NCBI GenBank assembly: GCA_022844165.1
Contig: JALHMH010000021.1
Coordinates: 16,646 to 80,645 of the forward strand
Source of the DNA: Lysobacterales bacterium
GTDB lineage: Bacteria; Pseudomonadota; Gammaproteobacteria; Xanthomonadales; SZUA-5
DNA: 64,000 bases
Direction of reading: 5' to 3'
The notes beneath the pieces were generated by a model. It saw only the letters and a program-made list of their open reading frames with translations. It was not told the DNA's origin and made no database searches. The position numbers and the translations under genes are program-made. Of the stretch, positions 49,846 through 61,377 are shown piece after piece. How positions within the stretch are numbered: the stretch's first letter is position 1; every line of letters starts with the position of its first letter.

Positions 49846-51591
49846 CTAGGCCAACGCCGCCTCCACTCGCTCGCATTCGGCCTTGAGCTTGCCGGGCGCC
49901 CGAGCGCCGAAGCTTTCCAGATAACGCTTGATTTCGCCGAATTCGTTGCGCCAGCCAGCTTCGTCCACCGTGAGCAGCGATTCGAGCGCGGCACTGATGT
50001 CGTCGAGGCCGCGCAGGTCCAGATCCTTCGCTTTCGGCAGCAAGCCGATCGGCGTTTCCTGCGCGCCCACTTTGCCTGCGCAGCGCGCAAGTATCCACTG
50101 CAATACCCGCAGGTTGTCCGAGAACCCTGGCCACAGGAATTTACCGTCGGCGCCTTTGCGGAACCAATTGACGTGATAAATCCGCGGTGGTTGGGAGAGT
50201 TTGTCGCCTACCTTGAGCCAGTGAGTGAAATAATCGGCAAAGTTGTAGCCGCAGAACGGCTTCATTGCCATCGAGTCGCGACGCACCACGCCCACCGCCC
50301 CGGTTGCTGCGGCCGTGGTTTCCGAGGCCATGGACGCGCCCACCAGCACACCGTGCTGCCAATCGCGTGCCTCAAAAACCAGTGGTACCAGAGATTCACG
50401 GCGACCACCAAAAATCAACGCGGAGATCGGCACGCCGGCCGGTTCGTCGGCCTCTGGTGCGAAGCTCGGGCACTGCCGCATCGACACGGTGAAACGCGAA
50501 TTGGGATGCGCTGCCGGGCCATTTTTCGGATCGTAGTCGCGGCCCTGCCAGTCTTTGACTGGCACCGCATCGGACAATCCCTCCCACCAAGGCTGGTTGT
50601 CGGCCGTGACCGCCACATTGGTAAAAATGGCATCGCGATTGAGCATCTCGACGGCATTGCGATTGGTCTTGCTGCTGGTGCCGGGCGCAACGCCAAAGTA
50701 CCCAGACTCGGGGTTGATCGCCCACAAGCGCCCATCGTGCCCCGGGTGCAACCAGCAGATGTCATCGCCAACGGTCCAAACTCTCCAACCTGCGTGTGAC
50801 AGCGGCGGAATCAGCATCGCCAGGTTGGTCTTGCCGCATGCCGAAGGAAACGCCGCGGCCACATAGTGACGCTCGCCTTGTGGGTTCTCGATCCCGACGA
50901 TCAACATGTGTTCGGCGAGCCAGCCTTCCTGCCGCGCTTGCCAACTCGCGATGCGCAGCGCGTGGCATTTCTTGCCGAGCAGCGCGTTGCCGCCGTAACC
51001 CGAGCCGTAGCTCTTGATCATCAGCTCTTCCGGAAAATGCATGATGAAGCGGCGCTCCGGATCGAGCTCGCCGATCGAATGCAAGCCGCGCACAAAGCGC
51101 CCTTCCCTTTCGATGCGCGTCAAGGCAGCCGCACCCATACGCGTCATGATGCGCATATTGACGACGACGTACGGACTATCGGTGATTTCCACACCACAGC
51201 GTGCGAACGGCGAATCGATAGGACCCATGCAATAAGGCACTACGTACAAGGTGCGCCCGCGCATGGACCCAGCGAACAGCGCATCGATTTGCGCATGCGC
51301 CGATGCCGGTGCCATCCAATGATTGTTGGGACCCGCATCGTCCTGATTCTGGCTGCAGACATACGTCAGGTGTTCCACTCGAGCAACATCGTTCGGATGC
51401 GAACGATGCAGATAGCAGTTTGGATGGGTCTCCGGGTTAAGCGTCAATAGATCGCCGAGTTCGACCATTCGCGCAATCAGCGCATCTCTTTCGGCTTCTG
51501 ATCCATCGCACCAATGGATACGATCCGGTTTTGTCAGAGTGGCAACTTCGGCCACCCACGCGTTGAGTGAATCCAGCGACGAAGGCATCAT
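49846..51591 (-). CDS. pckG: Phosphoenolpyruvate carboxykinase (GTP)
   Basis: DVARVE, YGSGYGGNALLGKKCHALRIAS, WLAEHM, AFPSACGKTNLAM, VGDDI, AHPNSRF, VNWFR. Confidence 0.96.
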   Translation of the reverse strand: MMPSSLDSLNAWVAEVATLTKPDRIHWCDGSEAERDALIARMVELGDLLTLNPETHPNCYLHRSHPNDVARVEHLTYVCSQNQDDAGPNNHWMAPASAHAQIDALFAGSMRGRTLYVVPYCMGPIDSPFARCGVEITDSPYVVVNMRIMTRMGAAALTRIEREGRFVRGLHSIGELDPERRFIMHFPEELMIKSYGSGYGGNALLGKKCHALRIASWQARQEGWLAEHMLIVGIENPQGERHYVAAAFPSACGKTNLAMLIPPLSHAGWRVWTVGDDICWLHPGHDGRLWAINPESGYFGVAPGTSSKTNRNAVEMLNRDAIFTNVAVTADNQPWWEGLSDAVPVKDWQGRDYDPKNGPAAHPNSRFTVSMRQCPSFAPEADEPAGVPISALIFGGRRESLVPLVFEARDWQHGVLVGASMASETTAAATGAVGVVRRDSMAMKPFCGYNFADYFTHWLKVGDKLSQPPRIYHVNWFRKGADGKFLWPGFSDNLRVLQWILARCAGKVGAQETPIGLLPKAKDLDLRGLDDISAALESLLTVDEAGWRNEFGEIKRYLESFGARAPGKLKAECERVEAALA

Positions 51592-51806: not shown

Positions 51807-53552
51807 CTACACCGGCAGCAGCGATTGTTGTTGCTCTTCGTGATAGACGGAGACTCGATCGCGGCCCGCGTCCTTTGCCATGTAGAGAGCAGCGTCCGCT
51901 TTGATCATCAGTTCGCGCAATTCGTACCCAGACTGATCCGTGCTGGCGATGCCAAAGCTGGCGGTGAGCGGACGCTGCGCGTCATTGGTCCCATACGGCA
52001 CCTTGCGCACAGACAATCGGCACAGTTCGGCGCGTTTCGCCGCATCGCTCTTGGAAACTCCCGGTAACAGAATGGCAAATTCTTCGCCGCCGATGCGACC
52101 GATCAACTCTCCTTCCGCTACATGTGCGCACAGTTCAGCGGCGGCTCTTTGCAAAACGTCGTCGCCTTCGGCGTGTCCGTAGCGATCGTTAATCAGCTTA
52201 AAGAAATCCAGATCGATCAAAATCAAGCTCGCGAAAGTCCCTCGGCGCTTCGCTTCCTCGAGTTTTTTCGTGACTTGTTCCACGAAGTGTCGGCGATTCG
52301 ATACCTTGGTCAGTGAATCGCGCTGCGATAGAAGCTGAAAATGGCGTCGAACCCGCATCGCTCGGATCGACCAATGCAAGCCAAACGCCAACAGGCTCGT
52401 CAGCAAAGCAACCGCAAGCCAGGCAGTTTGGGCATTTTTCGTCGACACCTGCTGCTGCAAAACCAGCACTTCGTTCTGCCGATTGAGCGACTCGATCTCC
52501 AATGACTTTGCGTTCGCTTCGAATCTGGCCATTTGATAGGCCAGAGAACGCCGACCAACATCGTCGGCATAACTCATCTCAGCACTCAACAGTTGCTCGT
52601 GCGCGAACAGGGCCGCATCGGTCCTGCCCAGCGATTTTTCGGCCTCATACCGGACTCTCCACGCCAGCGATCGCGATTCGGTGGAAAGTTCAGGGGATGC
52701 TGCATCTATCGCGCGTTGCGCCTCATCGATTGCCGCTTCGAACTTGCCTTGCATGAGGAATGCACGGGCCTTTATGGCAGCAATATCGATGAGCAGGTAG
52801 GGATACCGCGTTGCAGCCATTGACTCGGCGCGTGTTGCCAATAAGCTCAGCGCCGCTTCGGGTCGCCCGTTCGACAGATGCAACCGAGCCAGCTGGGTTC
52901 GCATCAGGCCACTGAAAACCTCCTCGCCTTGGTTTGAGCAACGTTCTGCCCATTGCGAATACTCGGGATCAACATCGTTCAATTCGCCGGCGCGTACTCG
53001 AGCTTCCAGTATCAGCATTTGAGCGCCGCAGCGCGCCCAGGGCTGGGCACCTTCGCGAATCAGCCGTTGACTGTATTGCAAGCTCTGTTGGTACTGCGCA
53101 CTGTGGTTCAGCAATTGCGCAATGACCCCGAGCGCCTGATCGCGTGCGGCAGGATCACTCACGTGTTCCACATCGCCAATCAGTTCATTCAGCTGCTCAT
53201 ACGCCTCAACATAGCGACGTGCCACAGTCAGAGCATTCAACATCGTGACCCGACTGCGAAACCGAATGACTGGGTCTTCGGCGTCGGCAATGAGCCGCTC
53301 AAACTCATTGATGGCCGAGACGAAGTCGCCGCTGAACGAATCGCGCCACGCGAGCAGATAGGCCAGGTGGTCGCGTTGCCGGTCCGTCAGGCGCGACTCA
53401 TCGGCCATGATGAGACTGAGTTCGCGATTGAACTCAGTCATGGACGTGCGTTTGACGTCCTCTGCCCGAGCCAGGCTTTCGTCAACGCTCGCTCCCGCGG
53501 CAAATGCCGCGAAAGCGCATGCGCCTACGAGAAATTGAAAGCAACCTCGCAT
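51807..53552 (-). CDS. Diguanylate cyclase with periplasmic TPR-like sensor domain
   Basis: Signal peptide MRGCFQFLVGACAFAAFAAGA; ~350-aa helical repeat region, coiled coil (EIESLNRQNEVL), one TM helix; DSLTKVSNRR, DLDFFKLINDRYGH, RIGGEEF, ADAALYMAK. ATG 53552 overlaps the upstream TGA. Confidence 0.9.
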   Translation of the reverse strand: MRGCFQFLVGACAFAAFAAGASVDESLARAEDVKRTSMTEFNRELSLIMADESRLTDRQRDHLAYLLAWRDSFSGDFVSAINEFERLIADAEDPVIRFRSRVTMLNALTVARRYVEAYEQLNELIGDVEHVSDPAARDQALGVIAQLLNHSAQYQQSLQYSQRLIREGAQPWARCGAQMLILEARVRAGELNDVDPEYSQWAERCSNQGEEVFSGLMRTQLARLHLSNGRPEAALSLLATRAESMAATRYPYLLIDIAAIKARAFLMQGKFEAAIDEAQRAIDAASPELSTESRSLAWRVRYEAEKSLGRTDAALFAHEQLLSAEMSYADDVGRRSLAYQMARFEANAKSLEIESLNRQNEVLVLQQQVSTKNAQTAWLAVALLTSLLAFGLHWSIRAMRVRRHFQLLSQRDSLTKVSNRRHFVEQVTKKLEEAKRRGTFASLILIDLDFFKLINDRYGHAEGDDVLQRAAAELCAHVAEGELIGRIGGEEFAILLPGVSKSDAAKRAELCRLSVRKVPYGTNDAQRPLTASFGIASTDQSGYELRELMIKADAALYMAKDAGRDRVSVYHEEQQQSLLPV

Positions 53553-53794
53553 CAAGCCGCCCGCTGCTGTGGCGCCTCTTTCTCGTCGTCCTTGTCGTCC
53601 TGTTGCTGATCATCATCCTGGCGGTCCGGATCAACGGGAAAAATGGCGCAGACCAGATTGTGGCGTGCACCGAGCATCTCCGTGAGTGCACGTCGGTCGC
53701 GGCGTGCAATCGCCGCCAAGAGCGCATCGGACGGCTGGTTCGGGTGCGGCCGGCCGATCGCCAGCGATTCCAGATAGGCAATTTCTGTGTTCAT
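53552..53794 (-). CDS. Putative borosin-type RiPP precursor peptide (short binding-domain-like leader, hydrophobic core, acidic follower)
   Basis: 80 aa: IAYLESLA...ALLAAIARRDRRALTEMLG, then NLVCAIFPVD, then a D/E/Q-rich tail. AGGGGG RBS; start and stop overlap both neighbours. Confidence 0.72.
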   Translation of the reverse strand: MNTEIAYLESLAIGRPHPNQPSDALLAAIARRDRRALTEMLGARHNLVCAIFPVDPDRQDDDQQQDDKDDEKEAPQQRAA

Positions 53795-54279
53795 GGTGTA
53801 AACCCCCTAGGTGAAGTGGCGCCTAAGAATAATCGGAACGAGTTGGCAGTTGTTGAATTATTTACACAGTTCTCGACGAGACGGGGGCTTTGTGGGGCCT
53901 GGACAAACCCCAGCCGCTTGGCAAGTCGGCACATGGGCCGGTTTTCTTCAGCAATCCACATGGCCAGACGCTCCTGGCAAAGCAACGGTTGCCGAAGCCA
54001 CAGGCCCATAATCTGCGTCCCCATTCCGCGTCGCCACCAGGCTTTAGACAGTAAAATTCCCAGTTCCAGGTACGGCGCACGCTTGCGGGCACAAAGAAGT
54101 GCCAGAGGACTCCCATCCAGTTCTGCAAGCTCATGCGTTCCCGCGCGGACGGCAGCATTGCAGCAACGCATCGACTGCGTTCGGGTCAGTGGCGCGCATA
54201 CCCATCGAGTCACTTCCGGATCGCAGTACAGATCGGCATAGAAATCTGCGTCGTCAATGCCAAGTGGTCTGATTCTCAC
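53791..54279 (-). CDS. GNAT (RimJ/RimL-like) acetyltransferase, divergent
   Basis: IRPL-x3-DADFYADLYCDPEVTRWV, ELGILLSKAWWRRGMGT (acetyl-CoA motif A), N-x-x-MCRLAKRLGF. Confidence 0.72.
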   Translation of the reverse strand: MRIRPLGIDDADFYADLYCDPEVTRWVCAPLTRTQSMRCCNAAVRAGTHELAELDGSPLALLCARKRAPYLELGILLSKAWWRRGMGTQIMGLWLRQPLLCQERLAMWIAEENRPMCRLAKRLGFVQAPQSPRLVENCVNNSTTANSFRLFLGATSPRGFTP

Positions 54280-55055
54280 GCTTCTCTTGCATCCAACAAG
54301 TCCAATGCGCGGTACACATCGTTGTTTCGGCTAAGCGCCCTGCCGGGCGGGATCACCAGCGTATCGGCGAGCGAAATGTCTGCACCCGGCAGGTCGCAGA
54401 GCGAAACGGATATGCAGCTCGGACGTTCGATGGGCAACACTGCGGCCCGATACAAGATGCAACGATGATCGCGCGGATACATACGAGCCAATTCATCGAC
54501 CAATAACTTCCGATACGAAGGTCCGGTCGCCAGGCGGCTCAGGGATCGATCGCCGACCATGGCAACTTGCCACAGGATCAAATATGCGCTGGGATCAACC
54601 TGCCGACGGTAAAGCAAGAACTGGCTGGCTTCGTAATGCTGACACCCGACTTCGCCGGGGTCGAAACCAAGATCTGCGTATAGGCAATCTGCTGCCGAAA
54701 CACCCGGCTCCATGATCGCATCCAGCCCAACAGCGCGCGCACGACGAATCACCTCGTGCGCCACCCAGGCAAAAACGCCGGGGTGCCCATAAAACGCGGC
54801 GACCACTTCCTGCCCACCCTGGCCGGCGCGGACAACATCCTCCACCATGGCCTCATAGCCGATTTTGCGCGATCGCCCGGGTACGTAGTGCGGTTGCAAG
54901 CTGCGCGCGTTCGGATTGAGCTCGGCCAACCACAACTCCACGATGCCATCAGAGACGTTGCTGAAGACAACGTCTGCGTTTTCGATCAGGTAGCGCGCGC
55001 GGGGGGTTAAGTGCGCACCCAGCATCATGCCAATACCGACACAGTAAATGGCCAA
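54276..55055 (-). CDS. Split-borosin-type peptide backbone alpha-N-methyltransferase (tetrapyrrole methylase fold, SonM-like)
   Basis: CVGIG, SLQPHY-x3-RSRKIGYEAMV, FYGHPGVFA, MEPGVSAADCLYADLGFDPG, GCQHYEASQF, LILWQVA, TLVIPP. TTG 55055 with GGAG RBS. Confidence 0.88.
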   Translation of the reverse strand: MAIYCVGIGMMLGAHLTPRARYLIENADVVFSNVSDGIVELWLAELNPNARSLQPHYVPGRSRKIGYEAMVEDVVRAGQGGQEVVAAFYGHPGVFAWVAHEVIRRARAVGLDAIMEPGVSAADCLYADLGFDPGEVGCQHYEASQFLLYRRQVDPSAYLILWQVAMVGDRSLSRLATGPSYRKLLVDELARMYPRDHRCILYRAAVLPIERPSCISVSLCDLPGADISLADTLVIPPGRALSRNNDVYRALDLLDAREA

Positions 55056-55161
55056 GGGGGAATCTCCAGCTGAACCGATAGACAGATCATCACACAAGCC
55101 GTGCGCGCGAACTCGGTATGCTGGGCCGGCGCATGCGGCGCGGCGACTTGACGAGTACAGC

Positions 55162-56526
55162 TTGGGGACTGCGCCATACACCAAAATTCCGTTCGATCGG
55201 CTGGTCGCGTATTCGGCCTTGCAGCTGCCGCTGGCAATGGCGGCGTTGCCGGTCGTGCTCAACGTCACGCACTACTACGGCGAAATTCTAAAGTTGTCGC
55301 TGGCGATGATCGGTCCAATTCTCATTGTCTCGCGCATCATCGATGCAATCCAGGATCCGATCATCGGGCATGTGAGCGATCGTCTGACACGATTTAAGAG
55401 TGGTCGGCTGATTCTCGTCGGCGCAACGGTACCGTTGTTGATGGCTGGTTTCTTCATGCTGTTCGACCCACCAGCGATGTTTCACCCGGTGGGCGATGGC
55501 CCCAACCCGAATTCAACTCTGCTCAGTATCTGGCTGTTTGCAGCACTCGTACTTGTGCACCTGGGCTACGCTTGCGTATCGATCAGTTATCACGCCTACG
55601 GCGCTGAACTCTCAGACGATTACAACGAACGAACTCGCGTGACCGTCGGCCGCGAAGTGTTCGGCCTCACGGGCATGATGATTGCCGTCGTCTTGCCGAC
55701 CTGGCTCACCGCCCGATTCGGCGAAGCCGCCGGATACCAGTGGTTGGGTATCGTGTATTTGCCGATCGCATTGTTATCGGCGCTACCGACGCTGCTGTAT
55801 TCGCCACCTTCGGTGCACGGACCTGTTCAACAAAAGCCTGGCAGTTTGATGGCGTCTTTTTTTGCGCCGCTGAAAAATCCGCTTTATCGTCGATTGCTGC
55901 TGGTGTTCGTTGTGAATGGGTCCGCACTCGGCATCGCGGTGAGTGTGATGCTGTTTTACGTGGAACACGTGCTGGGCGGCGGCAAACTCCAGGCTGGCAT
56001 CATCCTCCTGGCCTATTTCGTTTCCGGCGCTGCCAGTGTGCCACTCTGGATGTTTTTGTCGCGCCGTTGGAGCAAAGCAGCCGCCTGGTTGTTCGGCATT
56101 CTGTTGACAGTTGTCGCTATGGCTATCGCGGCGTTCTTTGGCCGAGGCGACATCGGATTGTTCGTTGCGGTTTCGGTCATCACGGGACTCGGCCTTGGCG
56201 CCGATTACGGCTTGCCGCCATCGATACTCGCAGACGTGATCAATGCTGAAGAAGGGAAAGACTCTCGCGGCGCCACGGGCGCGTACTTTGGCATCTGGGC
56301 TTTGTCGACCAAGCTCGCAACCGCAATCGGCGCCGCGGCTTCGCTTCCGGTGCTCGCAGCGCTGGGCTTTAACCCAAGCGCCGGATCTTACGACACAACT
56401 GCGTTGATTATTGTCTACATCTTTTTACCCATCGCAGTAAAGCTCATCGCTGCTGTATTGCTGTGGCGGATCCAGATTGAAGCCGAGCGCCCGCCTGTGC
56501 GAGAGATCTGGGCAGCGCGTCACTGA
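55162..56526 (+). CDS. MFS transporter (GPH / MFS_2 family)
   Basis: SRIIDAIQDPIIGHVSDR, GAELSDDYNERT, SILADVI, GAYFGIW; about 12 TM helices. Start uncertain (TTG 55162 avoids overlap with the divergent methyltransferase). Confidence 0.85.
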   Translation: MGTAPYTKIPFDRLVAYSALQLPLAMAALPVVLNVTHYYGEILKLSLAMIGPILIVSRIIDAIQDPIIGHVSDRLTRFKSGRLILVGATVPLLMAGFFMLFDPPAMFHPVGDGPNPNSTLLSIWLFAALVLVHLGYACVSISYHAYGAELSDDYNERTRVTVGREVFGLTGMMIAVVLPTWLTARFGEAAGYQWLGIVYLPIALLSALPTLLYSPPSVHGPVQQKPGSLMASFFAPLKNPLYRRLLLVFVVNGSALGIAVSVMLFYVEHVLGGGKLQAGIILLAYFVSGAASVPLWMFLSRRWSKAAAWLFGILLTVVAMAIAAFFGRGDIGLFVAVSVITGLGLGADYGLPPSILADVINAEEGKDSRGATGAYFGIWALSTKLATAIGAAASLPVLAALGFNPSAGSYDTTALIIVYIFLPIAVKLIAAVLLWRIQIEAERPPVREIWAARH

Positions 56527-56898: not shown

Positions 56899-59800
56899 AT
56901 GTGTCCGAATCGAACGCGCCGTTATCTTCGACTTGCCATCCTGATTCTCGGCGGGGCGTTCGCTATGCCTGCTGTGGCGTTCGACGCTACTTTTCGGCAG
57001 CTGGGCGCAGATCGCGGACTGTACCAATCGACAATTTCGGCGCTGGTGCAGGATCGTACGGGGTTTCTCTGGATCGGCACACAATCCGGATTGCATCGAT
57101 ATGACGGGCAAGCGATCGAATTCCTGCGTTTGCGGCACGATGCCAATGCGCCCGAAGAGCCCTTTGTTACGGCGCTCGCCGCGGACCACTCGGACGGATT
57201 GTTCGTCGGCACTCCGACCACAGGTATCGGTCGCCTCGATCTGCGAACACTGCGCTTCGCGGCTTGTCCGCCGAGCGCTCACAGCGATCCCGACCGCGCC
57301 GATCAGATTATTCAATTGCGCATCGACCACAAAAACACGCTTTGGATCGTCAGCCATGCAGGCATCGAGATCCTCGAGCCTGATGCGAGCCGGCGACAGG
57401 TGGTTTACCGCGACGCGGAACCATCGACCGTACTCGGAGGCCGCACGATTCTAGGGATAGCCCCGCACGGCAATCGAATGCTGATGGCAACGAAAAGACA
57501 GTTGCTGCGCCTGTCGAAACAGGATGCGCCGGAAGTGCTTCTGGATGGCGATGTGGGCACGATGGAGTCGATCGCTACGCGCGTCGATGGTGGGATCTGG
57601 ATCAAGGCGTCGCGGGGCTTGTTTCGTTACGACAACGGCAAGGTCGAGTATGTGGCGTCCATCAATGCTCAACCCACCACCTCGGTTGTGGTTTCGAATC
57701 TTCTCGACGACGGCCTCGGCGCAGTCTGGTATGGCGTGAGTGGGCACGGTCTGGTGCGTGTCGACTGCACAACCGGAAGGTCGCATTGGTTTCACGGCGA
57801 GGATCGCGTTCCAGGCAAGCTGCCGGCCGACAACATTTCGGTACTCTTGCGCGACGCCAGTGGTTTGATCTGGACAGGCACTGAGTTCAGCGGGCTCTGG
57901 TCGGCACCAAGCGAGGGCAGCCGCTTTCGCACGATTCGAGACCAACCATCGACGGGCAGTCAGACCAGCACCAACAACGTGCGCGCACTGGCAGCGCTTG
58001 GAGAAAGCGTTTTTGTCGGCACCGAAGGACACGGCCTGAAGCAATTTCATTGGCCCACTCAGCAGTTCGAGGACGTGACTGCATGGCTGCTGACGGCGCT
58101 TGCTGAGGCGAACCTGGCGCCGCCGAAAGAAATACGCGTTCATGGATTACGCTCCGACCATGAGGACGTCCTTTGGGCAGCTACCAGTGAGGGTGCGTTC
58201 CGGATCGACGTGCCCGCGGCATCGGCAAAGCTGATTCCGATGCACGATGCGCTGCCAAAAGGTCCGCTGCAACGTTTCGTGCGCAGCACGCTGATCGTCG
58301 GAGACGAGGTTTGGTTCGGCACGCAGGCAAATGGAGTCATACGTTGCGACTCGAACTTCGAACGATGCCGCCAATACCGACATGAAACCAGCAGCTTGAG
58401 CAACGACCTGGTCTTGATGTTGGAGAAGGATCGCCAGGGTCGTATCTGGGCGGGAACACTCGATGGGTTGAACCTTTATGACGCTGCCAAAGATGACTGG
58501 CAATCGTTCGGCGTCGATGACGGGTTGCCGAGTTCTGTGGTTCGGCACATGTTGTCGGGCTCTGAAGGCAGGGTCTTTTTCAGCACCCACGGCGGAGTCG
58601 CGCGGCTCGACATCGTCGAAGGGCGCATTCGCTTCGACAGCGACTTCGCGATTAACCAATCCCCAGACCCGACGACTTATGCCATTGCTGAAGACACGAA
58701 TGGCATGTTCTGGCTATCCGGAAATCGAGGGTTGATTGCCTTCATGCCGGACTCCGGTCATTTTCACACGTTCGGCCCTGAAGACGGGCTTCAAGGGTTC
58801 GAGTTCAACGGCGGATCGGTGGCTGCTATCGATGGCAAACTGCTGTTTGGTGGGATTGGTGGAATCAACGCGTTCGATCCTGCACAGATCCGCGTATCGC
58901 AGTTTACAGCCCGGTTGGCGATCACCGCATGGTCGATCGATGGAGCCGCTGGAGCGCCACTCGCGCCTGGCGAGACACTACGTCTGGCGGCTCACCAGCG
59001 CCAGATCAACTTGTCATTCAGCGCTTTGGATTTCCGCGCCCCATCACGAAATCGCTACGCGCACCGACTACTCGGATTCGACGATGTCTGGGCTGAAGGC
59101 GTGGGTCGTGGCCAGGTGAGCCTGACCAATCTGGCACCGGGCAACTACACGCTACAACTTCGGGCCAGCAACAGCGATGGTGTCTGGAACGAAAAGCTCG
59201 TCGAGATACCCGTCAGCGTTGCTGCCCCTTGGTGGGGAACTCAACAAGCTCGGTTCGCTTACGCAATCCTCGTGGTGGTCAGCGCAGGATTGGCATGGCT
59301 GGTGTTTCGGCGCCGCCGTCAGCGGCGCCTGGCCTATGTTGACGCATTGCGGCTTCGCGAGGATCGCCTGAAGCTGAGCCTTTGGGGTTCGGGCGACGGT
59401 TTCTGGGATTGGGATCTGCGAACGAACACGATTCATCGCGAGGGCCTGGATCGCGTGCTTGGCATGCCACGCAGCGAAATGGAGATGGACCTGAGCGATT
59501 GGAAAACCGGGGAGGTGCATCCTGACGACCTGCCCAAGGTGAACGAACGCATTTTCCGGCACGTTCATGGCCAGGCTGAGCACTATGAATCGGAACACCG
59601 ATTGCGCGGCGCCGATGGCAACTGGATCTGGATTTTGGCGCGTGGCAAGGTTGTCGAACGCGATGCTGCTGGAAACGCGCAGCGCGTGTCGGGCACGGTC
59701 CGAAACATCGAAACTCAAAGACGCGCACAACATGAAGCACGCGTTGCCACGGAGGTGATCCGAACGATGGGCGAAGCGGTCGCGGTGCTCGACTCGGAAT

Positions 59801-61377
59801 TCAGGTTCCAACAATGCAATCCGGCCTTCGAGCGCATGAGCGGTTACACGACGACTGAGTTGCGCGGATTGTCCTGGTCGATGTTCGACAGCACCAAGCA
59901 CGATCCGGCCTTCTACGAACAGCGCATCGGCGCGCTTTCCAGGCACGGGCAATGGCGTGGCGAATGTTGGCAACGCGACCGCAAGGGCGACGACTTGTTG
60001 TTTGCGCTTGATGCCGTGATGACGCGAGACCGGGAGACGGATGCGCCCTATGTGGTCCTGGTGCAAACCGACATTACGGCTCGTAAGCTCGCTGAAGTAG
60101 AACTTCGCCAAATGGCCAGTTTTGATCAGCTCACGGGACTTGCGAATCGCTCGGCGTTGATGAAAGAGCTGGGACAGCGCCTGTTGGAGGCGCGCGCACG
60201 AAACGCACCGGTCGCCATGCTGTTTCTGGACCTGGATCGCTTCAAACAAATCAACGACAGCTTAGGTCATGCAGCCGGCGACGAACTCTTGCGAGCTGTC
60301 GGCCAGCGCCTCGTGAGCCACCTTCCGCAGCTCGCCTTTGTGGCGCGTCAGGGTGGCGACGAGTTCATTGTGCTGCTCGACGACAGCGCTGGCGCAAGAC
60401 ACGCAGTGGACGTCGCCAGACGACTGCTCGATGCCTTCGCCGCACCGATCGATATCCGCGGAAGCGCGGTCAAGATCACCCCGAGTATCGGTATTGCGCT
60501 CTATCCCGATCACGCCAATAACGTTGAGGACTTGATGCGATTTGCGGACGCAGCGATGTATGCGGCCAAGGGTGAAGGGCGTAATTCGATCTTCGTTTAT
60601 CGCGATAGCCTGGCGAGTCATGGAAAACTACGTTTGGAATTGGAGCAAAGCGTTCGGCGCGGTAACGGCTTCCGCGACTTTTCGGTGCATTACCAGCCCA
60701 TTTTTCGCCTGACGGACCGGACACCGGTTGCCGTGGAAGCGTTGTTGCGCTGGCGTTTGCTGGACGAAGAGGTTTCACCTTCCGTGTTTGTTCCACTCCT
60801 CGAAGAAAGCGGGCTGATCATCGAAGTTGGGCGGTTCGTGCTCACTCAGGCACTGGGTCAGCTTGCCGAATGGCGAAGGGCCGGGATGCACGCCTTGCGC
60901 GTCTCGGTCAATCTCTCGACTTTGCAGTTGCTCCGTGCTGAGCTGGTCGGCGAGATCAGGTTAGCACTCGAGAGTGCTGGGTTGCCCGGTAGCGCACTGG
61001 AGCTCGAACTGACCGAAACGCTGGTGATGAGCAATCCAGAACAAGCGATTCGTACGCTCAGCGATTTAAAGGCACTGGGTGTGGTCATCGTCGTCGACGA
61101 CTTCGGCACGGGCTACTCGTCGTTGAGTTATCTGAAACGCCTTCCTATCGATAAGCTCAAGATCGACCGCGAATTCGTCCGCGACTTGATCGATGATGCC
61201 GACGACGCGCTCATTGTGGAGACCATCCTGGCGATGGCGGACGCGTTGAAGATCGGCGTTATTGCCGAGGGCGTGGAGAACGAAGCTCAACTCGCGTTCC
61301 TGGCCGAACACGGCTGCACCGAAGTGCAAGGATTCCTGCTCGGCAGGCCGTTGCCGGCCGCTGAACTCTGGAACTGA
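56899..61377 (+). CDS. Beta-propeller/Y_Y_Y sensor with PAS-PAS-GGDEF-EAL output (c-di-GMP cyclase/phosphodiesterase)
   Basis: Signal peptide; QDRTGFLWIGTQSGLHRYDG propeller repeats, TNLAPGNYTLQLRASNSDG, TM helix, VHPDD PAS, DQLTGLANR, RQGGDEF, VEALLRW, ELELTE, DDFGTGYSSLSYL, AEGVE, QGF. Confidence 0.93.
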   Translation: MCPNRTRRYLRLAILILGGAFAMPAVAFDATFRQLGADRGLYQSTISALVQDRTGFLWIGTQSGLHRYDGQAIEFLRLRHDANAPEEPFVTALAADHSDGLFVGTPTTGIGRLDLRTLRFAACPPSAHSDPDRADQIIQLRIDHKNTLWIVSHAGIEILEPDASRRQVVYRDAEPSTVLGGRTILGIAPHGNRMLMATKRQLLRLSKQDAPEVLLDGDVGTMESIATRVDGGIWIKASRGLFRYDNGKVEYVASINAQPTTSVVVSNLLDDGLGAVWYGVSGHGLVRVDCTTGRSHWFHGEDRVPGKLPADNISVLLRDASGLIWTGTEFSGLWSAPSEGSRFRTIRDQPSTGSQTSTNNVRALAALGESVFVGTEGHGLKQFHWPTQQFEDVTAWLLTALAEANLAPPKEIRVHGLRSDHEDVLWAATSEGAFRIDVPAASAKLIPMHDALPKGPLQRFVRSTLIVGDEVWFGTQANGVIRCDSNFERCRQYRHETSSLSNDLVLMLEKDRQGRIWAGTLDGLNLYDAAKDDWQSFGVDDGLPSSVVRHMLSGSEGRVFFSTHGGVARLDIVEGRIRFDSDFAINQSPDPTTYAIAEDTNGMFWLSGNRGLIAFMPDSGHFHTFGPEDGLQGFEFNGGSVAAIDGKLLFGGIGGINAFDPAQIRVSQFTARLAITAWSIDGAAGAPLAPGETLRLAAHQRQINLSFSALDFRAPSRNRYAHRLLGFDDVWAEGVGRGQVSLTNLAPGNYTLQLRASNSDGVWNEKLVEIPVSVAAPWWGTQQARFAYAILVVVSAGLAWLVFRRRRQRRLAYVDALRLREDRLKLSLWGSGDGFWDWDLRTNTIHREGLDRVLGMPRSEMEMDLSDWKTGEVHPDDLPKVNERIFRHVHGQAEHYESEHRLRGADGNWIWILARGKVVERDAAGNAQRVSGTVRNIETQRRAQHEARVATEVIRTMGEAVAVLDSEFRFQQCNPAFERMSGYTTTELRGLSWSMFDSTKHDPAFYEQRIGALSRHGQWRGECWQRDRKGDDLLFALDAVMTRDRETDAPYVVLVQTDITARKLAEVELRQMASFDQLTGLANRSALMKELGQRLLEARARNAPVAMLFLDLDRFKQINDSLGHAAGDELLRAVGQRLVSHLPQLAFVARQGGDEFIVLLDDSAGARHAVDVARRLLDAFAAPIDIRGSAVKITPSIGIALYPDHANNVEDLMRFADAAMYAAKGEGRNSIFVYRDSLASHGKLRLELEQSVRRGNGFRDFSVHYQPIFRLTDRTPVAVEALLRWRLLDEEVSPSVFVPLLEESGLIIEVGRFVLTQALGQLAEWRRAGMHALRVSVNLSTLQLLRAELVGEIRLALESAGLPGSALELELTETLVMSNPEQAIRTLSDLKALGVVIVVDDFGTGYSSLSYLKRLPIDKLKIDREFVRDLIDDADDALIVETILAMADALKIGVIAEGVENEAQLAFLAEHGCTEVQGFLLGRPLPAAELWN

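What the first reader, a model, noticed from the sequence alone, without database searches (positions are those of the whole stretch)
51807..55055. Translationally coupled borosin methyltransferase - GNAT - precursor - TPR diguanylate cyclase operon: candidate modified-peptide input to c-di-GMP signalling
Seen: four minus-strand genes whose stop and start codons overlap (GTGA 54276-54279, ATGA 53791-53794, TGATG 53550-53554), so they very likely form one unit. Known: the first protein carries the borosin alpha-N-methyltransferase signature (YGHPGVF, EPGVSA-x-DCL-x-ADLG-x-DPG) and the Tyr/Arg/Tyr arrangement of the OphMA/SonM active site (HY...R...GY). Split borosins act on a separate small precursor, and some occur near GGDEF genes. 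Inference: the product may be a backbone-N-methylated, possibly acetylated, peptide or small protein that is sensed by, or modulates, the periplasmic TPR domain of the cyclase, rather than an antibiotic. I know of no demonstrated function for this arrangement.
Basis: partly seen in the sequence, partly recalled or inferred. Interest (0 to 1): 0.9.

Follow-up and report, generated by a model that had tools for sequence, protein, structure and literature searches.

The report
Split borosin operon with dedicated cyclase
This is a four-gene peptide-modification operon of a published type (a "split borosin" cluster), whose small precursor gene is almost always paired with its own membrane-bound c-di-GMP cyclase in related bacteria, which hints at an untested signalling role.

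Summary
Four minus-strand genes overlap stop-to-start.

**What the genes are**
- The first is a close homologue of the borosin backbone N-methyltransferase SonM (E 9e-65), with its Tyr/Arg/Tyr active site.
- The 80-aa protein belongs to a family whose profile matches only SonA precursor chains in the PDB.
- Its layout is a hydrophobic motif, then Pro53, then a polyanionic tail. This matches SamA1 of Shewanella amazonensis, where methylation licenses cleavage before the Pro and releases an unmethylated acidic peptide.

**What is already published:** GGDEF genes occur in 56% of split borosin clusters and PF13302 acetyltransferases in about 26%. TPR-GGDEF-methyltransferase fusions are also described. 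This is a new member of a known kind.

**What I add**
- In 80 related loci, 87 of 90 cyclases of this sensor type follow a precursor gene. Extra precursor+cyclase pairs occur without a second methyltransferase.
- Between cassettes of one locus, sensor and precursor differ strongly while GGDEF domains stay alike.
- 54 of 57 genomes with the sensor also have the methyltransferase.

**Limits:** Peptide sensing by the periplasmic domain stays unproven. I found no exporter, no charge complementarity and no pepsin-like maturase in this genome.

The parts
54276..55055 (-). Borosin-type backbone alpha-N-methyltransferase (SonM/SamM1 homologue), 259 aa from TTG at 55055. The longest ORF runs to 55268.
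   Evidence: PF00590 E 2.7e-19. PDB SonM 7ltc_A E 9.3e-65 over residues 74-319 of the long ORF; OphMA about 3e-38. YGHPGVF and DCLYAD motifs. Y57/R63/Y67 are invariant in 11 relatives and align with SonM Y58/R67/Y71. A GGAGA box lies 7 nt before the TTG.
53791..54279 (-). GNAT acetyltransferase (162 aa), PF13302 type. It is an accessory enzyme of this cluster family. Its start GTG overlaps the methyltransferase stop (GTGA).
   Evidence: PF13302 E 3.7e-11 and PF00583 E 4.1e-5. It aligns end to end (positions 1-146 of 148) with an HMM of cluster-linked homologues. Homologues occur in 41 of 80 related loci. No PDB sequence hit at E<=0.01.
53552..53794 (-). SonA/SamA1-type borosin precursor, 80 aa. 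Its start overlaps the GNAT stop (ATGA) and its stop overlaps the cyclase start (TGATG).
   Evidence: Homologues in 12 of 39 relatives. Profiles of the family hit only SonA chains in the PDB (E 1.2e-5; 3.2e-5 with all 7 hits SonA). The fold model's best match among 48,161 chains is SonA 9cgw_B, Z 3.8, rmsd 2.0 A over 38 residues. The single sequence alone gave no PDB hit and no meaningful Pfam hit.
53669..53794 (-). Precursor residues 1-42: shortened borosin-binding domain (leader). It lacks about 13 residues present in most relatives.
   Evidence: Alignment A1. The profile match to SonA covers SonA residues 1-55. The AF2 model has helices 3-13, 23-30 and 34-41 with pLDDT 87-93.
53636..53668 (-). 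Precursor residues 43-53 (ARHNLVCAIFP): predicted methylation motif ending in the near-invariant Pro53. Cleavage is predicted between Phe52 and Pro53.
   Evidence: Pro at this column in 75 of 82 cassettes, Cys49 in 53 of 82, hydrophobic residues at 50-52. SamA1 is methylated at Phe52 and cut between Phe53 and Pro54. The assignment here is by analogy, not shown.
53555..53635 (-). Precursor residues 54-80: the polyanionic tail after Pro53, ending in QRAA. With Pro53 it forms the predicted 28-residue fragment (53-80, net charge -7).
   Evidence: Tail measured from Pro53: median length 33 residues and median net charge -8; 71 of 82 tails have charge <= -5 and 3 of 82 are strongly basic. The AF2 model is coil with pLDDT about 52. 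The SamA1 product is a similar acidic peptide.
51807..53552 (-). Membrane diguanylate cyclase, 581 aa from the ATG at 53552: N-terminal hydrophobic segment, TPR-like sensor, long stalk helix with a transmembrane segment, GGDEF domain.
   Evidence: PF00990 E 6.2e-43 with weak TPR hits. TIGR00254 E 3.3e-45. AF2 model mean pLDDT 91.6. The GGDEF domain matches WspR, SiaD and DgcB structures.
52533..53480 (-). Sensor domain (residues 25-340), an alpha-solenoid, predicted periplasmic. It is the only copy of this domain in the genome.
   Evidence: Helix pairs 38-307 in the model. It is flanked by a hydrophobic N-terminus (Kyte-Doolittle 2.05) and a second transmembrane segment from residue 378. Cys175 and Cys205 are present in 82 of 82 relatives. 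tblastn finds one copy in the genome against 38 GGDEF matches.
51828..52337 (-). GGDEF catalytic domain (residues 406-575). The GGEEF active site (52077-52091) is intact. The RxxD inhibitory site is replaced by AEGE.
   Evidence: GGEEF in 82 of 82 relatives. At the I-site, Arg occurs in 74 of 82 and Asp in 75 of 82, but the window has A479 and E482.
55056..55160 (.). Probable promoter region between the methyltransferase start and the divergent MFS_2 transporter gene, with a 14-nt block (55086-55099) shared with the same-genus relative.
   Evidence: DNA alignment with L013. The block occurs once in the window. The transporter reading frame upstream of 'TKIPF' is poorly conserved, so its true start probably lies near 55160. 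No consensus promoter was found.

Best explanation
Identity (probability about 0.95): this is a Type IV 'split borosin' operon of a Lysobacterales bacterium, of the sam/son kind described in Shewanella.

How it most likely works:
1. The SonM-like methyltransferase binds the helical N-terminal domain of the 80-aa precursor and N-methylates one or two backbone amides in the hydrophobic stretch V48-C-A-I-F52. This is inferred from homology.
2. As shown for SamA1, methylation licenses an endoprotease to cut before the near-invariant Pro53. This would release a 28-residue polyanionic peptide (P53 to A80). It is inferred by analogy, and the protease is unknown here.
3. The PF13302 acetyltransferase may acetylate the new N-terminus or a lysine. 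This is a guess.
4. The precursor, or its released peptide, is the dedicated partner of the cyclase encoded directly downstream and tunes its c-di-GMP output. The precursor-cyclase pair is the conserved, duplicated unit. One methyltransferase can serve several such pairs, and precursor and sensor domain diverge together.

I put about 0.45 on step 4 in any form, meaning the peptide or precursor modulates this cyclase. I put about 0.25-0.3 on the specific form in which the released peptide is bound by the periplasmic sensor domain.
For: Shown here:
- Gene overlaps.
- SonM homology at E 9e-65 and the conserved catalytic triad.
- Precursor-family profiles hit only SonA chains, and SonA is the best structural match of 48,161 chains, though weak at Z 3.8.
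- Pro53 is present in 75 of 82 cassettes and 71 of 82 tails are acidic, matching the SamA1 cleavage layout. A PF13302 GNAT is also in the sam cluster and in 41 of 80 related loci.

Coupling to the cyclase:
- 88 of 113 precursor ORFs are followed within 400 nt by a cyclase of this sensor type. Six more are cut by a locus end. 87 of 90 such cyclases are preceded by a precursor ORF.
- 14 of the 80 loci yielded two complete precursor+cyclase cassettes, and second cassettes commonly lack a methyltransferase of their own. There are 83 methyltransferase hits for 90 cyclases.
- In 14 same-locus cassette pairs the mean fraction of differing residues is 0.57 for the sensor, 0.69 for the precursor core and 0.76 for the tail, but only 0.23 for GGDEF.
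- The nearest neighbour by sensor or by precursor never lies in the same locus (0 of 28 each). By GGDEF it does in 8 of 28.
- Core and tail distances track sensor distance (partial r 0.47 and 0.49 given GGDEF) and not GGDEF distance (-0.10 and -0.13 given the sensor).
- 54 of 57 genomes with the sensor domain also carry the methyltransferase, out of 149 genomes of the order.
- The sensor is single-copy in this genome, next to the only precursor.
- In a same-family genome the cyclase and methyltransferase are fused, with a precursor ORF 17 nt upstream.
Against: - No pepsin-like PF00026 peptidase was found in this 99.97%-complete genome. The same search finds one in 22 of 149 genomes of the order, 21 of which carry the methyltransferase. 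The SamP step therefore has no candidate enzyme here.
- The precursor has no signal peptide. No exporter or protease family is shared by more than 21 of the 80 loci.
- Shewanellamide A was found only in cell pellets, not in supernatants. The Sam peptide was detected in cell extracts.
- Tail charge does not anticorrelate with sensor charge (Spearman 0.07, p 0.52). Here both are acidic, -7 and -11.
- The window's precursor has a shortened leader, with three predicted helices against five in SonA. On its own it matches nothing in the PDB by sequence.
- Co-divergence may only reflect that sensor and precursor both evolve fast. Related genomes are not independent samples.
- The 80 loci were chosen by the presence of the methyltransferase, within 6 kb on each side.
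Confidence: 0.45

Rival explanations
1. A cytoplasmic complex rather than periplasmic sensing. The methyltransferase dimer with its bound precursor docks on the cytoplasmic stalk or GGDEF part of the cyclase. Either it controls cyclase dimerisation and activity (as the small protein SiaC activates SiaD), or the sensor controls peptide maturation. The periplasmic domain then senses something else.
For: In relatives the methyltransferase is fused to the C-terminus of a TPR-GGDEF protein, with the precursor ORF directly upstream (Type X of Imani et al.). Precursor, methyltransferase and GGDEF domain are all cytoplasmic. There is no exporter. Shewanella peptides are cell-associated. SonM-SonA forms dimers of heterodimers, and GGDEF enzymes need to dimerise (general knowledge). 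SiaD-SiaC is among the structural matches of the GGDEF part.
Against: Cassettes of one locus differ little in GGDEF (0.23) but strongly in sensor and precursor. The cytoplasmic part therefore offers little room for cassette-specific recognition. Precursor core and tail distances do not track GGDEF distance once the sensor is accounted for. A fusion shows a functional link, not contact.
Confidence: 0.25
2. A conventional natural-product cluster. The operon makes an anionic (possibly acetylated) peptide with an external or unrelated role, such as antimicrobial action or metal binding. The cyclase is only co-regulated with it, or regulates production or immunity, without sensing the peptide.
For: Borosins are treated as RiPP natural products in the literature, and Lee et al. 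raise antimicrobial activity of anionic peptides as a possibility. A divergent MFS transporter gene lies next to the operon here and in the same-genus relative.
Against: Shewanellamide A showed no antibiotic activity and was absent from supernatants. The transporter is not found beside the cluster outside the same-genus locus L013: tblastn with the MFS protein hit only that one of the 11 relatives' loci. The one-to-one pairing of precursor and cyclase genes (87 of 90) and their repeated joint duplication are hard to explain by co-regulation alone.
Confidence: 0.15
3. The 80-aa protein is not cleaved at all. It acts as a small methylated regulatory protein whose conformation, switched by backbone methylation, is what the cell reads.
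For: No SamP-like peptidase in the genome. SonA changes secondary structure on methylation.
Against: The conserved Pro and the long disordered acidic tail match the SamA1 cleavage layout. Both characterised Shewanella systems yield fragments in vivo.
Confidence: 0.1
4. The methyltransferase is an ordinary tetrapyrrole or rRNA (CobA/CbiF/RsmI/YabN-type) methylase, and the gene neighbourhood is coincidental.
For: Pfam places it only in the general TP_methylase family.
Against: All 25 strong PDB hits are borosin enzymes; the remaining two of the 27 listed (Tako8, E about 4e-4) are noise. NCBIfam hits to YabN and a precorrin methylase are far below their cut-offs. The borosin motifs and triad are present. 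Synteny is conserved across the order.
Confidence: 0.01

Closest known systems
Shewanella amazonensis sam cluster: SamM1, SamA1, SamP (shewasin A) and a PF13302 acetyltransferase (Lee et al., bioRxiv 10.1101/2024.01.09.574750; I read sections 6, 8 and 9)
   Same: A separate methyltransferase and a precursor that carries its own binding domain. A bulky hydrophobic pair followed by Pro and a long polyanionic tail. A PF13302 acetyltransferase in the cluster. The window tail resembles the reported product PAEDEPEKEQQENEEEDEAPKA.
   Different: No PF00026 pepsin-like peptidase in this genome. The motif is Ile-Phe-Pro rather than Phe-Phe-Pro. The leader is about 13 residues shorter. The text I read does not say whether the sam cluster holds a GGDEF gene, and its figure is not held.
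Shewanella oneidensis son cluster: SonM, SonA, the GGDEF protein SO1480 and the cation efflux pump SO1481; product shewanellamide A (Miller 2021, PMC8429565, passages; Crone 2023, PMC10549244, sections 4 and 9 plus passages)
   Same: The order methyltransferase, precursor, GGDEF. The methyltransferase matches SonM over the full catalytic domain (E 9e-65). The leader is homologous to the SonA binding domain.
   Different: The SonA core is at the very C-terminus and the product keeps its two methyl groups. Here a 27-residue acidic tail follows the motif. The son cluster has no acetyltransferase.
Type X borosins: TPR-TM-GGDEF-methyltransferase fusion proteins, mostly in Xanthomonadales (Imani et al., bioRxiv 10.1101/2021.12.24.474128; whole text read)
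   Same: The same three modules (TPR-like sensor, GGDEF, borosin methyltransferase) in the same bacterial order. I verified one in a same-family genome, with a precursor ORF 17 nt upstream.
   Different: Here the cyclase and the methyltransferase are separate genes. The fusion-linked precursor is SonA-like, with no acidic tail.
Rap-Phr and other RRNPP peptide-receptor cassettes of Firmicutes (recalled from general knowledge; no call)
   Same: It works like this in outline: a TPR-type receptor gene paired with a small precursor gene, several diverged cassettes per genome, and receptor and peptide diverging together.
   Different: RRNPP receptors are cytoplasmic and their peptides are secreted and re-imported. 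There is no backbone methylation and no c-di-GMP output. No homology is claimed or tested.
SiaC-SiaD of Pseudomonas aeruginosa: a small protein that activates a diguanylate cyclase (PDB 7e6g, a structural match of the GGDEF part)
   Same: A precedent for a small protein that controls a GGDEF enzyme from the cytoplasmic side.
   Different: SiaD has no TPR sensor. The NCBIfam SiaD model scores 146 bits against a cut-off of 290. SiaC is unrelated to SonA as far as tested.

Membership tests
Borosin alpha-N-methyltransferase (SonM/OphMA family) | TP_methylase fold, closer to borosin enzymes than to tetrapyrrole, RsmI or YabN methylases | tested here: met
   PF00590 E 2.7e-19. PDB: SonM 9e-65, dbOphMA 2e-40, OphMA 3e-38, MroMA 4e-33, and no tetrapyrrole methylase at E<=0.01. 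NCBIfam YabN scores 24 bits against a cut-off of 525.
Borosin alpha-N-methyltransferase (SonM/OphMA family) | The YGHP and DCL(F/Y)AD motifs used for borosin detection (Imani et al.) | tested here: met
   FYGHPGVFA and AADCLYADLG in the sequence. Motif names are from the paper.
Borosin alpha-N-methyltransferase (SonM/OphMA family) | Active-site Tyr/Arg/Tyr (SonM Y58, R67, Y71) | tested here: met
   Aligned. Invariant Y57, R63, Y67 in 11 relatives. Residue roles come from Miller 2021.
Borosin alpha-N-methyltransferase (SonM/OphMA family) | Backbone amide methylation of a peptide substrate | not testable with these tools
   Needs co-expression and mass spectrometry.
Type IV split borosin precursor (SonA/SamA1 type) | Separate small ORF next to the methyltransferase | tested here: met
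   80-aa ORF, two genes downstream and translationally coupled. The equivalent ORF is present in 10 of 11 relatives' loci and counted as 113 ORFs across the 80 loci.
Type IV split borosin precursor (SonA/SamA1 type) | N-terminal borosin-binding domain homologous to that of SonA | tested here: met
   Met at family level: profiles A1 and A3 hit only SonA chains (E 1.2e-5; 3.2e-5). The window protein belongs to that family (E 3.4e-25 to the same-genus copy). Alone it gives no PDB hit and no Pfam LigA hit.
Type IV split borosin precursor (SonA/SamA1 type) | Five-helix bundle fold of the binding domain | tested here: inconclusive
   The AF2 model has three helices and the domain lacks about 13 residues. 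Foldseek found nothing. VIA-align ranks SonA first of 48,161 chains, but only at Z 3.8.
sam-type maturation (methylation-licensed cleavage) | Hydrophobic pair, then Pro, then a polyanionic C-terminal peptide | tested here: met
   I51-F52-P53 followed by a tail of net charge -7. Pro in 75 of 82 cassettes and acidic tails in 71 of 82. Compared with the SamA1 description.
sam-type maturation (methylation-licensed cleavage) | Pepsin-like A1 peptidase (PF00026) in the cluster or elsewhere in the genome | tested here: not met
   0 matches in the own genome, which is 99.97% complete. The same search finds it in 22 of 149 genomes of the order.
sam-type maturation (methylation-licensed cleavage) | PF13302 acetyltransferase in the cluster | tested here: met
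   PF13302 E 3.7e-11. Reported for the sam cluster.
Type X borosin (fused TPR-TM-GGDEF-methyltransferase) | Methyltransferase domain fused to the C-terminus of the GGDEF protein | tested here: not met
   The two are separate ORFs with two genes between them. A true fusion exists in a relative.
Diguanylate cyclase (GGDEF) | GGDEF domain with an intact GG(D/E)EF site | tested here: met
   PF00990 E 6.2e-43. GGEEF at residues 488-492, conserved in 82 of 82 relatives.
Diguanylate cyclase (GGDEF) | RxxD inhibitory site five residues before the GGEEF motif (common but not obligatory) | tested here: not met
   The window has A479-E-G-E482, where 74 of 82 relatives have Arg and 75 of 82 have Asp.

The most novel reading that the evidence does not exclude
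Each precursor gene and the TPR-GGDEF gene behind it form a cognate peptide-receptor cassette. Backbone methylation by a shared enzyme is a licence for release of the peptide, and the peptide sets the output of its own cyclase. Genomes hold several diverged cassettes, as Rap-Phr systems do. This would be a RiPP-derived self-signalling input to c-di-GMP, and it would give the widespread bacterial split borosins their first physiological role.
Probability: 0.28. Interest if true: 0.85.

Novelty: new member of a known kind. Interest (0 to 1): 0.45.

Why it matters
More than 2,500 bacterial borosin clusters are catalogued, but the papers I read state that their native role is unknown. GGDEF genes are their commonest neighbours (56%), yet none of the borosin papers my four library searches returned reports a functional link, and borosin + c-di-GMP returned none.

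The window itself is an ordinary member of this class. The comparative pattern around it makes the question testable:
- The precursor and cyclase are paired one to one.
- The pair is duplicated together without the enzyme.
- The sensor and the precursor diverge together while the output domain stays alike.

The organism offers a minimal system of one methyltransferase, one precursor and one cyclase of this type. The cyclase lacks the product-inhibition site.

Tried and rejected
- **Complex prediction.** The machine was unreachable in all 12 tries, so there is no result either way.
- **Single-sequence searches of the 80-aa protein.** No PDB hit at E<=10. Pfam gave only a chance hit to GP67. None of the 82 precursors matched a meaningful Pfam family.
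- **Structure searches.** Foldseek with the precursor model found nothing at E<=0.001. Foldseek with the whole cyclase model returned only GGDEF structures, so the sensor fold was not placed.
- **GNAT.** No PDB sequence hit.
- **Signals.** The promoter and terminator scan was uninformative.
- **Expression.** No RNA holder was listed among public runs.
- **Charge complementarity.** The test between tail and sensor was negative.
- **Neighbour survey.** Most recurrent 'families' were frames without any Pfam domain. The named ones (DUF3014, NfeD, ABC-2) occur in at most 13 of the 80 loci.
- **False lead.** One of the 12 first hits to the 80-aa protein (G023, locus L020) was a low-complexity match without a methyltransferase or cyclase nearby.
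- **GNAT count corrected.** A first count by single-sequence search (8 ORFs) was far too low. The iterated HMM found 46.
- **Rejected idea.** I considered that the C-terminal Ala-Ala is an ssrA-like degradation tag. Only 11 of 82 tails end in AA, so I dropped it.
- **Unseen material.** I did not request supplementary files of the papers. The cluster tables of Imani et al. and Lee et al. may already list precursor-GGDEF pairing or this lineage.

Full report
**1. Observation**

The four minus-strand ORFs exist as described:
- a methyltransferase at 54276..55055/55268
- a GNAT at 53791..54279
- an 80-aa ORF at 53552..53794
- a 581/582-aa TPR-GGDEF protein at 51807..53552/53555

The methyltransferase most likely starts at the TTG at 55055. 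A GGAGA box lies 7 nt upstream, and SonM aligns from two residues after it. GC content is even across the region, 0.55-0.60. A consensus scan found no promoter, and no more terminator-like sites than shuffles give.

**2. The methyltransferase**

Pfam places it only in TP_methylase. Against the PDB, the top hits are:
- SonM chains at E 9e-65, matching the whole catalytic domain (query residues 74-319)
- dbOphMA at 2e-40
- OphMA at 3e-38
- MroMA at 4e-33

No tetrapyrrole, RsmI or YabN enzyme appears at E<=0.01. NCBIfam hits to YabN and a precorrin methylase lie far below their cut-offs.

The YGHP and DCLYAD motifs used to detect borosin enzymes are present. The residues aligned with SonM Y58, R67 and Y71, named as the catalytic set by Miller et al. 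(passages), are Tyr, Arg and Tyr. They are invariant in 11 relatives.

**3. The 80-aa protein**

On its own it matches nothing in the PDB or in Pfam.

It does have homologues in 12 of 39 related genomes (one of the 12 was a spurious low-complexity hit). In 10 of 11 loci fetched from them, a small ORF sits between the methyltransferase (or a GNAT) and a TPR-GGDEF gene.

A profile of 11 such ORFs hits SonA chains first, at E 1.2e-5 over SonA's binding domain. A profile of 82 gives 7 hits at E<=0.01, and all are SonA.

The AF2 model of the window protein has three helices (3-13, 23-30, 34-41) and a disordered remainder. Foldseek found nothing for it. An exhaustive alignment to 48,161 chains ranks SonA first, at Z 3.8 with rmsd 2.0 A over 38 residues, and the next chain scores Z 2.8. 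That is weak but consistent.

The window copy and its same-genus orthologue lack about 13 residues of the leader that other relatives have.

**4. Layout of the precursor**

Across 82 cassettes the conserved elements are:
- the leader
- an 'LLG' turn
- a variable hydrophobic stretch, often with Cys
- a Pro present in 75 of 82
- a tail with median length 33 residues and median net charge -8

Of the 82 tails, 71 have net charge <= -5 and 3 are strongly basic.

This matches SamA1 of S. amazonensis as described by Lee et al. (section 8):
- SamM1 methylates Phe52.
- The pepsin-like SamP cuts between Phe53 and Pro54 only when the site is methylated.
- The released peptide is acidic and unmethylated.
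- A PF13302 acetyltransferase sits in the same cluster.

By analogy, the window precursor would be methylated within V48-F52 and cut before Pro53, giving a 28-residue peptide of net charge -7. This step is inferred.

The own genome, which is 99.97% complete, has no PF00026 peptidase. The same search finds one in 22 of 149 genomes of the order. Of these 22, 21 also carry the methyltransferase, and in four the peptidase gene lies within about 3 kb of the cluster.

**5. The GNAT**

It matches PF13302 and aligns end to end with an HMM built from cluster-linked homologues. That HMM finds 44 ORFs of more than 110 aa in 41 of 80 loci:
- 25 lie just after the methyltransferase, and 20 of these directly precede a precursor ORF
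- 12 lie just before the methyltransferase
- 5 lie in front of the precursor of a second cassette
- 2 lie elsewhere

Its substrate is unknown.

**6. The cyclase**

The GGDEF domain is clear, and GGEEF is intact in 82 of 82 relatives. The AF2 model has mean pLDDT 91.6. It shows an alpha-solenoid at residues 38-307, one long helix at 311-409, then the GGDEF domain.

The following features fit a periplasmic sensor:
- a hydrophobic N-terminus
- a strongly hydrophobic segment from residue 378, present in 82 of 82 relatives
- two invariant cysteines in the sensor

The N-terminal segment passes my threshold in only 43 of 82 relatives, partly because I guessed their start codons. Imani et al. predict the same topology.

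The window enzyme lacks the RxxD inhibitory site that most relatives keep.

**7. What is already known**

The whole text of Imani et al. reports:
- GGDEF as the commonest domain in split borosin clusters (56%)
- PF13302 in about 26% of clusters
- Xanthomonadales as 22.5% of hits
- Type X fusions of TPR-TM-GGDEF with the methyltransferase

The son cluster consists of SonM, SonA, a GGDEF protein and an efflux pump. Its 16-residue product was found only in cell pellets, showed no antibiotic activity, and has an unknown role.

Full-text searches gave 13 papers for 'split borosin', 3 for borosin + GGDEF, 1 for borosin + diguanylate cyclase and none for borosin + c-di-GMP. None of those I opened tests a link to c-di-GMP. 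I did not see the supplementary tables. The Biochemistry 2022 paper of Cho et al., which I recall, is not in the searchable library.

A scan of one genome per species found 557 relatives of the methyltransferase. The best 80 loci are nearly all Lysobacterales: Rhodanobacter, Dyella, Frateuria, Arenimonas, Luteibacter, Steroidobacter and Lysobacter.

In these loci I counted:
- 83 methyltransferase hits
- 113 precursor-like ORFs on the same strand
- 90 cyclases with this sensor type

Of the 113 precursor ORFs, 88 are followed by such a cyclase within 400 nt, with a median inferred spacer of about 60 nt. Six are cut by the locus end. The other 19 are mostly extra precursors lying upstream of another precursor. 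Of the 90 cyclases, 87 have a precursor ORF just upstream.

Fourteen of the 80 loci yielded two complete precursor+cyclase cassettes, and second cassettes commonly lack a methyltransferase of their own.

For 14 pairs of cassettes within one locus, the mean fraction of differing residues is:

| Part | Mean fraction differing |
|---|---|
| Leader | 0.52 |
| Core | 0.69 |
| Tail | 0.76 |
| Sensor | 0.57 |
| GGDEF | 0.23 |

The nearest relative of a cassette by sensor, or by precursor, is never its locus-mate (0 of 28 each). By GGDEF it is the locus-mate in 8 of 28.

Core and tail distances follow sensor distance (partial r 0.47 and 0.49) and not GGDEF distance (-0.10 and -0.13). These correlations ignore phylogeny and are only suggestive.

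In 149 genomes of the order, 57 have the sensor domain and 74 have the methyltransferase. Of the 57, 54 have both. The 20 genomes with the methyltransferase but without this sensor mostly carry a more divergent enzyme.

The window's genome has one copy each of methyltransferase, GNAT, precursor and sensor, against 38 GGDEF matches.

In a same-family genome I confirmed an 850-aa TPR-GGDEF-TP_methylase fusion. A 72-aa LigA-like ORF lies 17 nt upstream, and it lacks an acidic tail. A second genome has the same layout.

**9. Interpretation**

Identity as a sam/son-type split borosin operon is secure. That the precursor and the cyclase form a functional pair is well supported by gene order, joint duplication and the phyletic pattern.

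How they interact is open. Several results count against it:
- There is no signal peptide and no conserved exporter or protease.
- The Shewanella peptides are cell-associated.
- There is no charge complementarity.
- Fusions tether the precursor-binding enzyme to the cytoplasmic end of the cyclase.

I therefore rank 'the precursor or peptide modulates its own cyclase' first, at about 0.45. Within it, the periplasmic version stands at about 0.25-0.3, and a cytoplasmic complex is the main rival at 0.25. The multimer prediction that could have separated them could not be run, because the tool was unreachable 12 times.

**10. Verdict**

This is a real, conserved operon and a new member of a published class. 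The cassette pattern I found across the order is, as far as my searches reach, not described in print. It turns the open question of what bacterial borosins do into concrete experiments.

Noticed in passing
window 52106-52117 (cyclase residues 479-482): The window's cyclase has AEGE where 74 of 82 relatives have Arg and 75 of 82 have Asp of the RxxD inhibitory site. The enzyme probably escapes product inhibition.
   Followed up: partly
window 55048-56526 (+) and 55086-55099: A divergent MFS_2/GPH-type transporter gene lies upstream. Its annotated ATG at 55048 would overlap the methyltransferase start. The frame upstream of 'TKIPF' is poorly conserved in the same-genus relative, so the real start is probably near 55160. 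A 14-nt block in the spacer is shared with that relative. tblastn with the MFS protein hit only the same-genus locus L013 among the 11 relatives' loci.
   Followed up: partly
L037:7331-7675, L062:7340-7645, L072:7411-7839: Three precursors carry strongly basic, Lys/Pro/Ala-rich tails (net charge +16 to +27) in place of the usual acidic tail, behind the same leader and Pro motif.
   Followed up: no
L033, L043, L055, L059, L091, L096, L103 (first precursor after the methyltransferase): 'Orphan' precursors that are not followed by a cyclase have short tails. These often contain repeated Cys-Cys-Met/Leu motifs and end in -CA or -RRA. They look like a separate precursor class within the same clusters.
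   Followed up: no
L108:1931-4719 (-) and L109:1951-4747 (-): Same-family genomes that have a split cluster also carry a Type X fusion gene (850 aa, TPR-GGDEF-TP_methylase) with its own 72-aa SonA-like precursor. Upstream lies a 705-aa Ser/Thr-kinase-TPR gene.
   Followed up: partly
G122:C11, G068:C45, G083:C39, G112:C42 (not fetched): In four genomes of the order a PF00026 pepsin-like peptidase gene lies within about 3 kb of the methyltransferase and sensor genes. 21 of 22 genomes with the peptidase also have the methyltransferase.
   Followed up: partly
window 56899-61377 (+): A 1492-aa protein with a C-terminal GGDEF-EAL-like region lies 1.6 kb upstream of the operon (seen in the translation). 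The contig holds further GGDEF matches. I did not analyse them.
   Followed up: no
window 49846-51591 (-): A GTP-dependent PEP carboxykinase (PF00821 and PF17297) lies directly downstream of the cyclase gene. It is an ordinary housekeeping neighbour.
   Followed up: no
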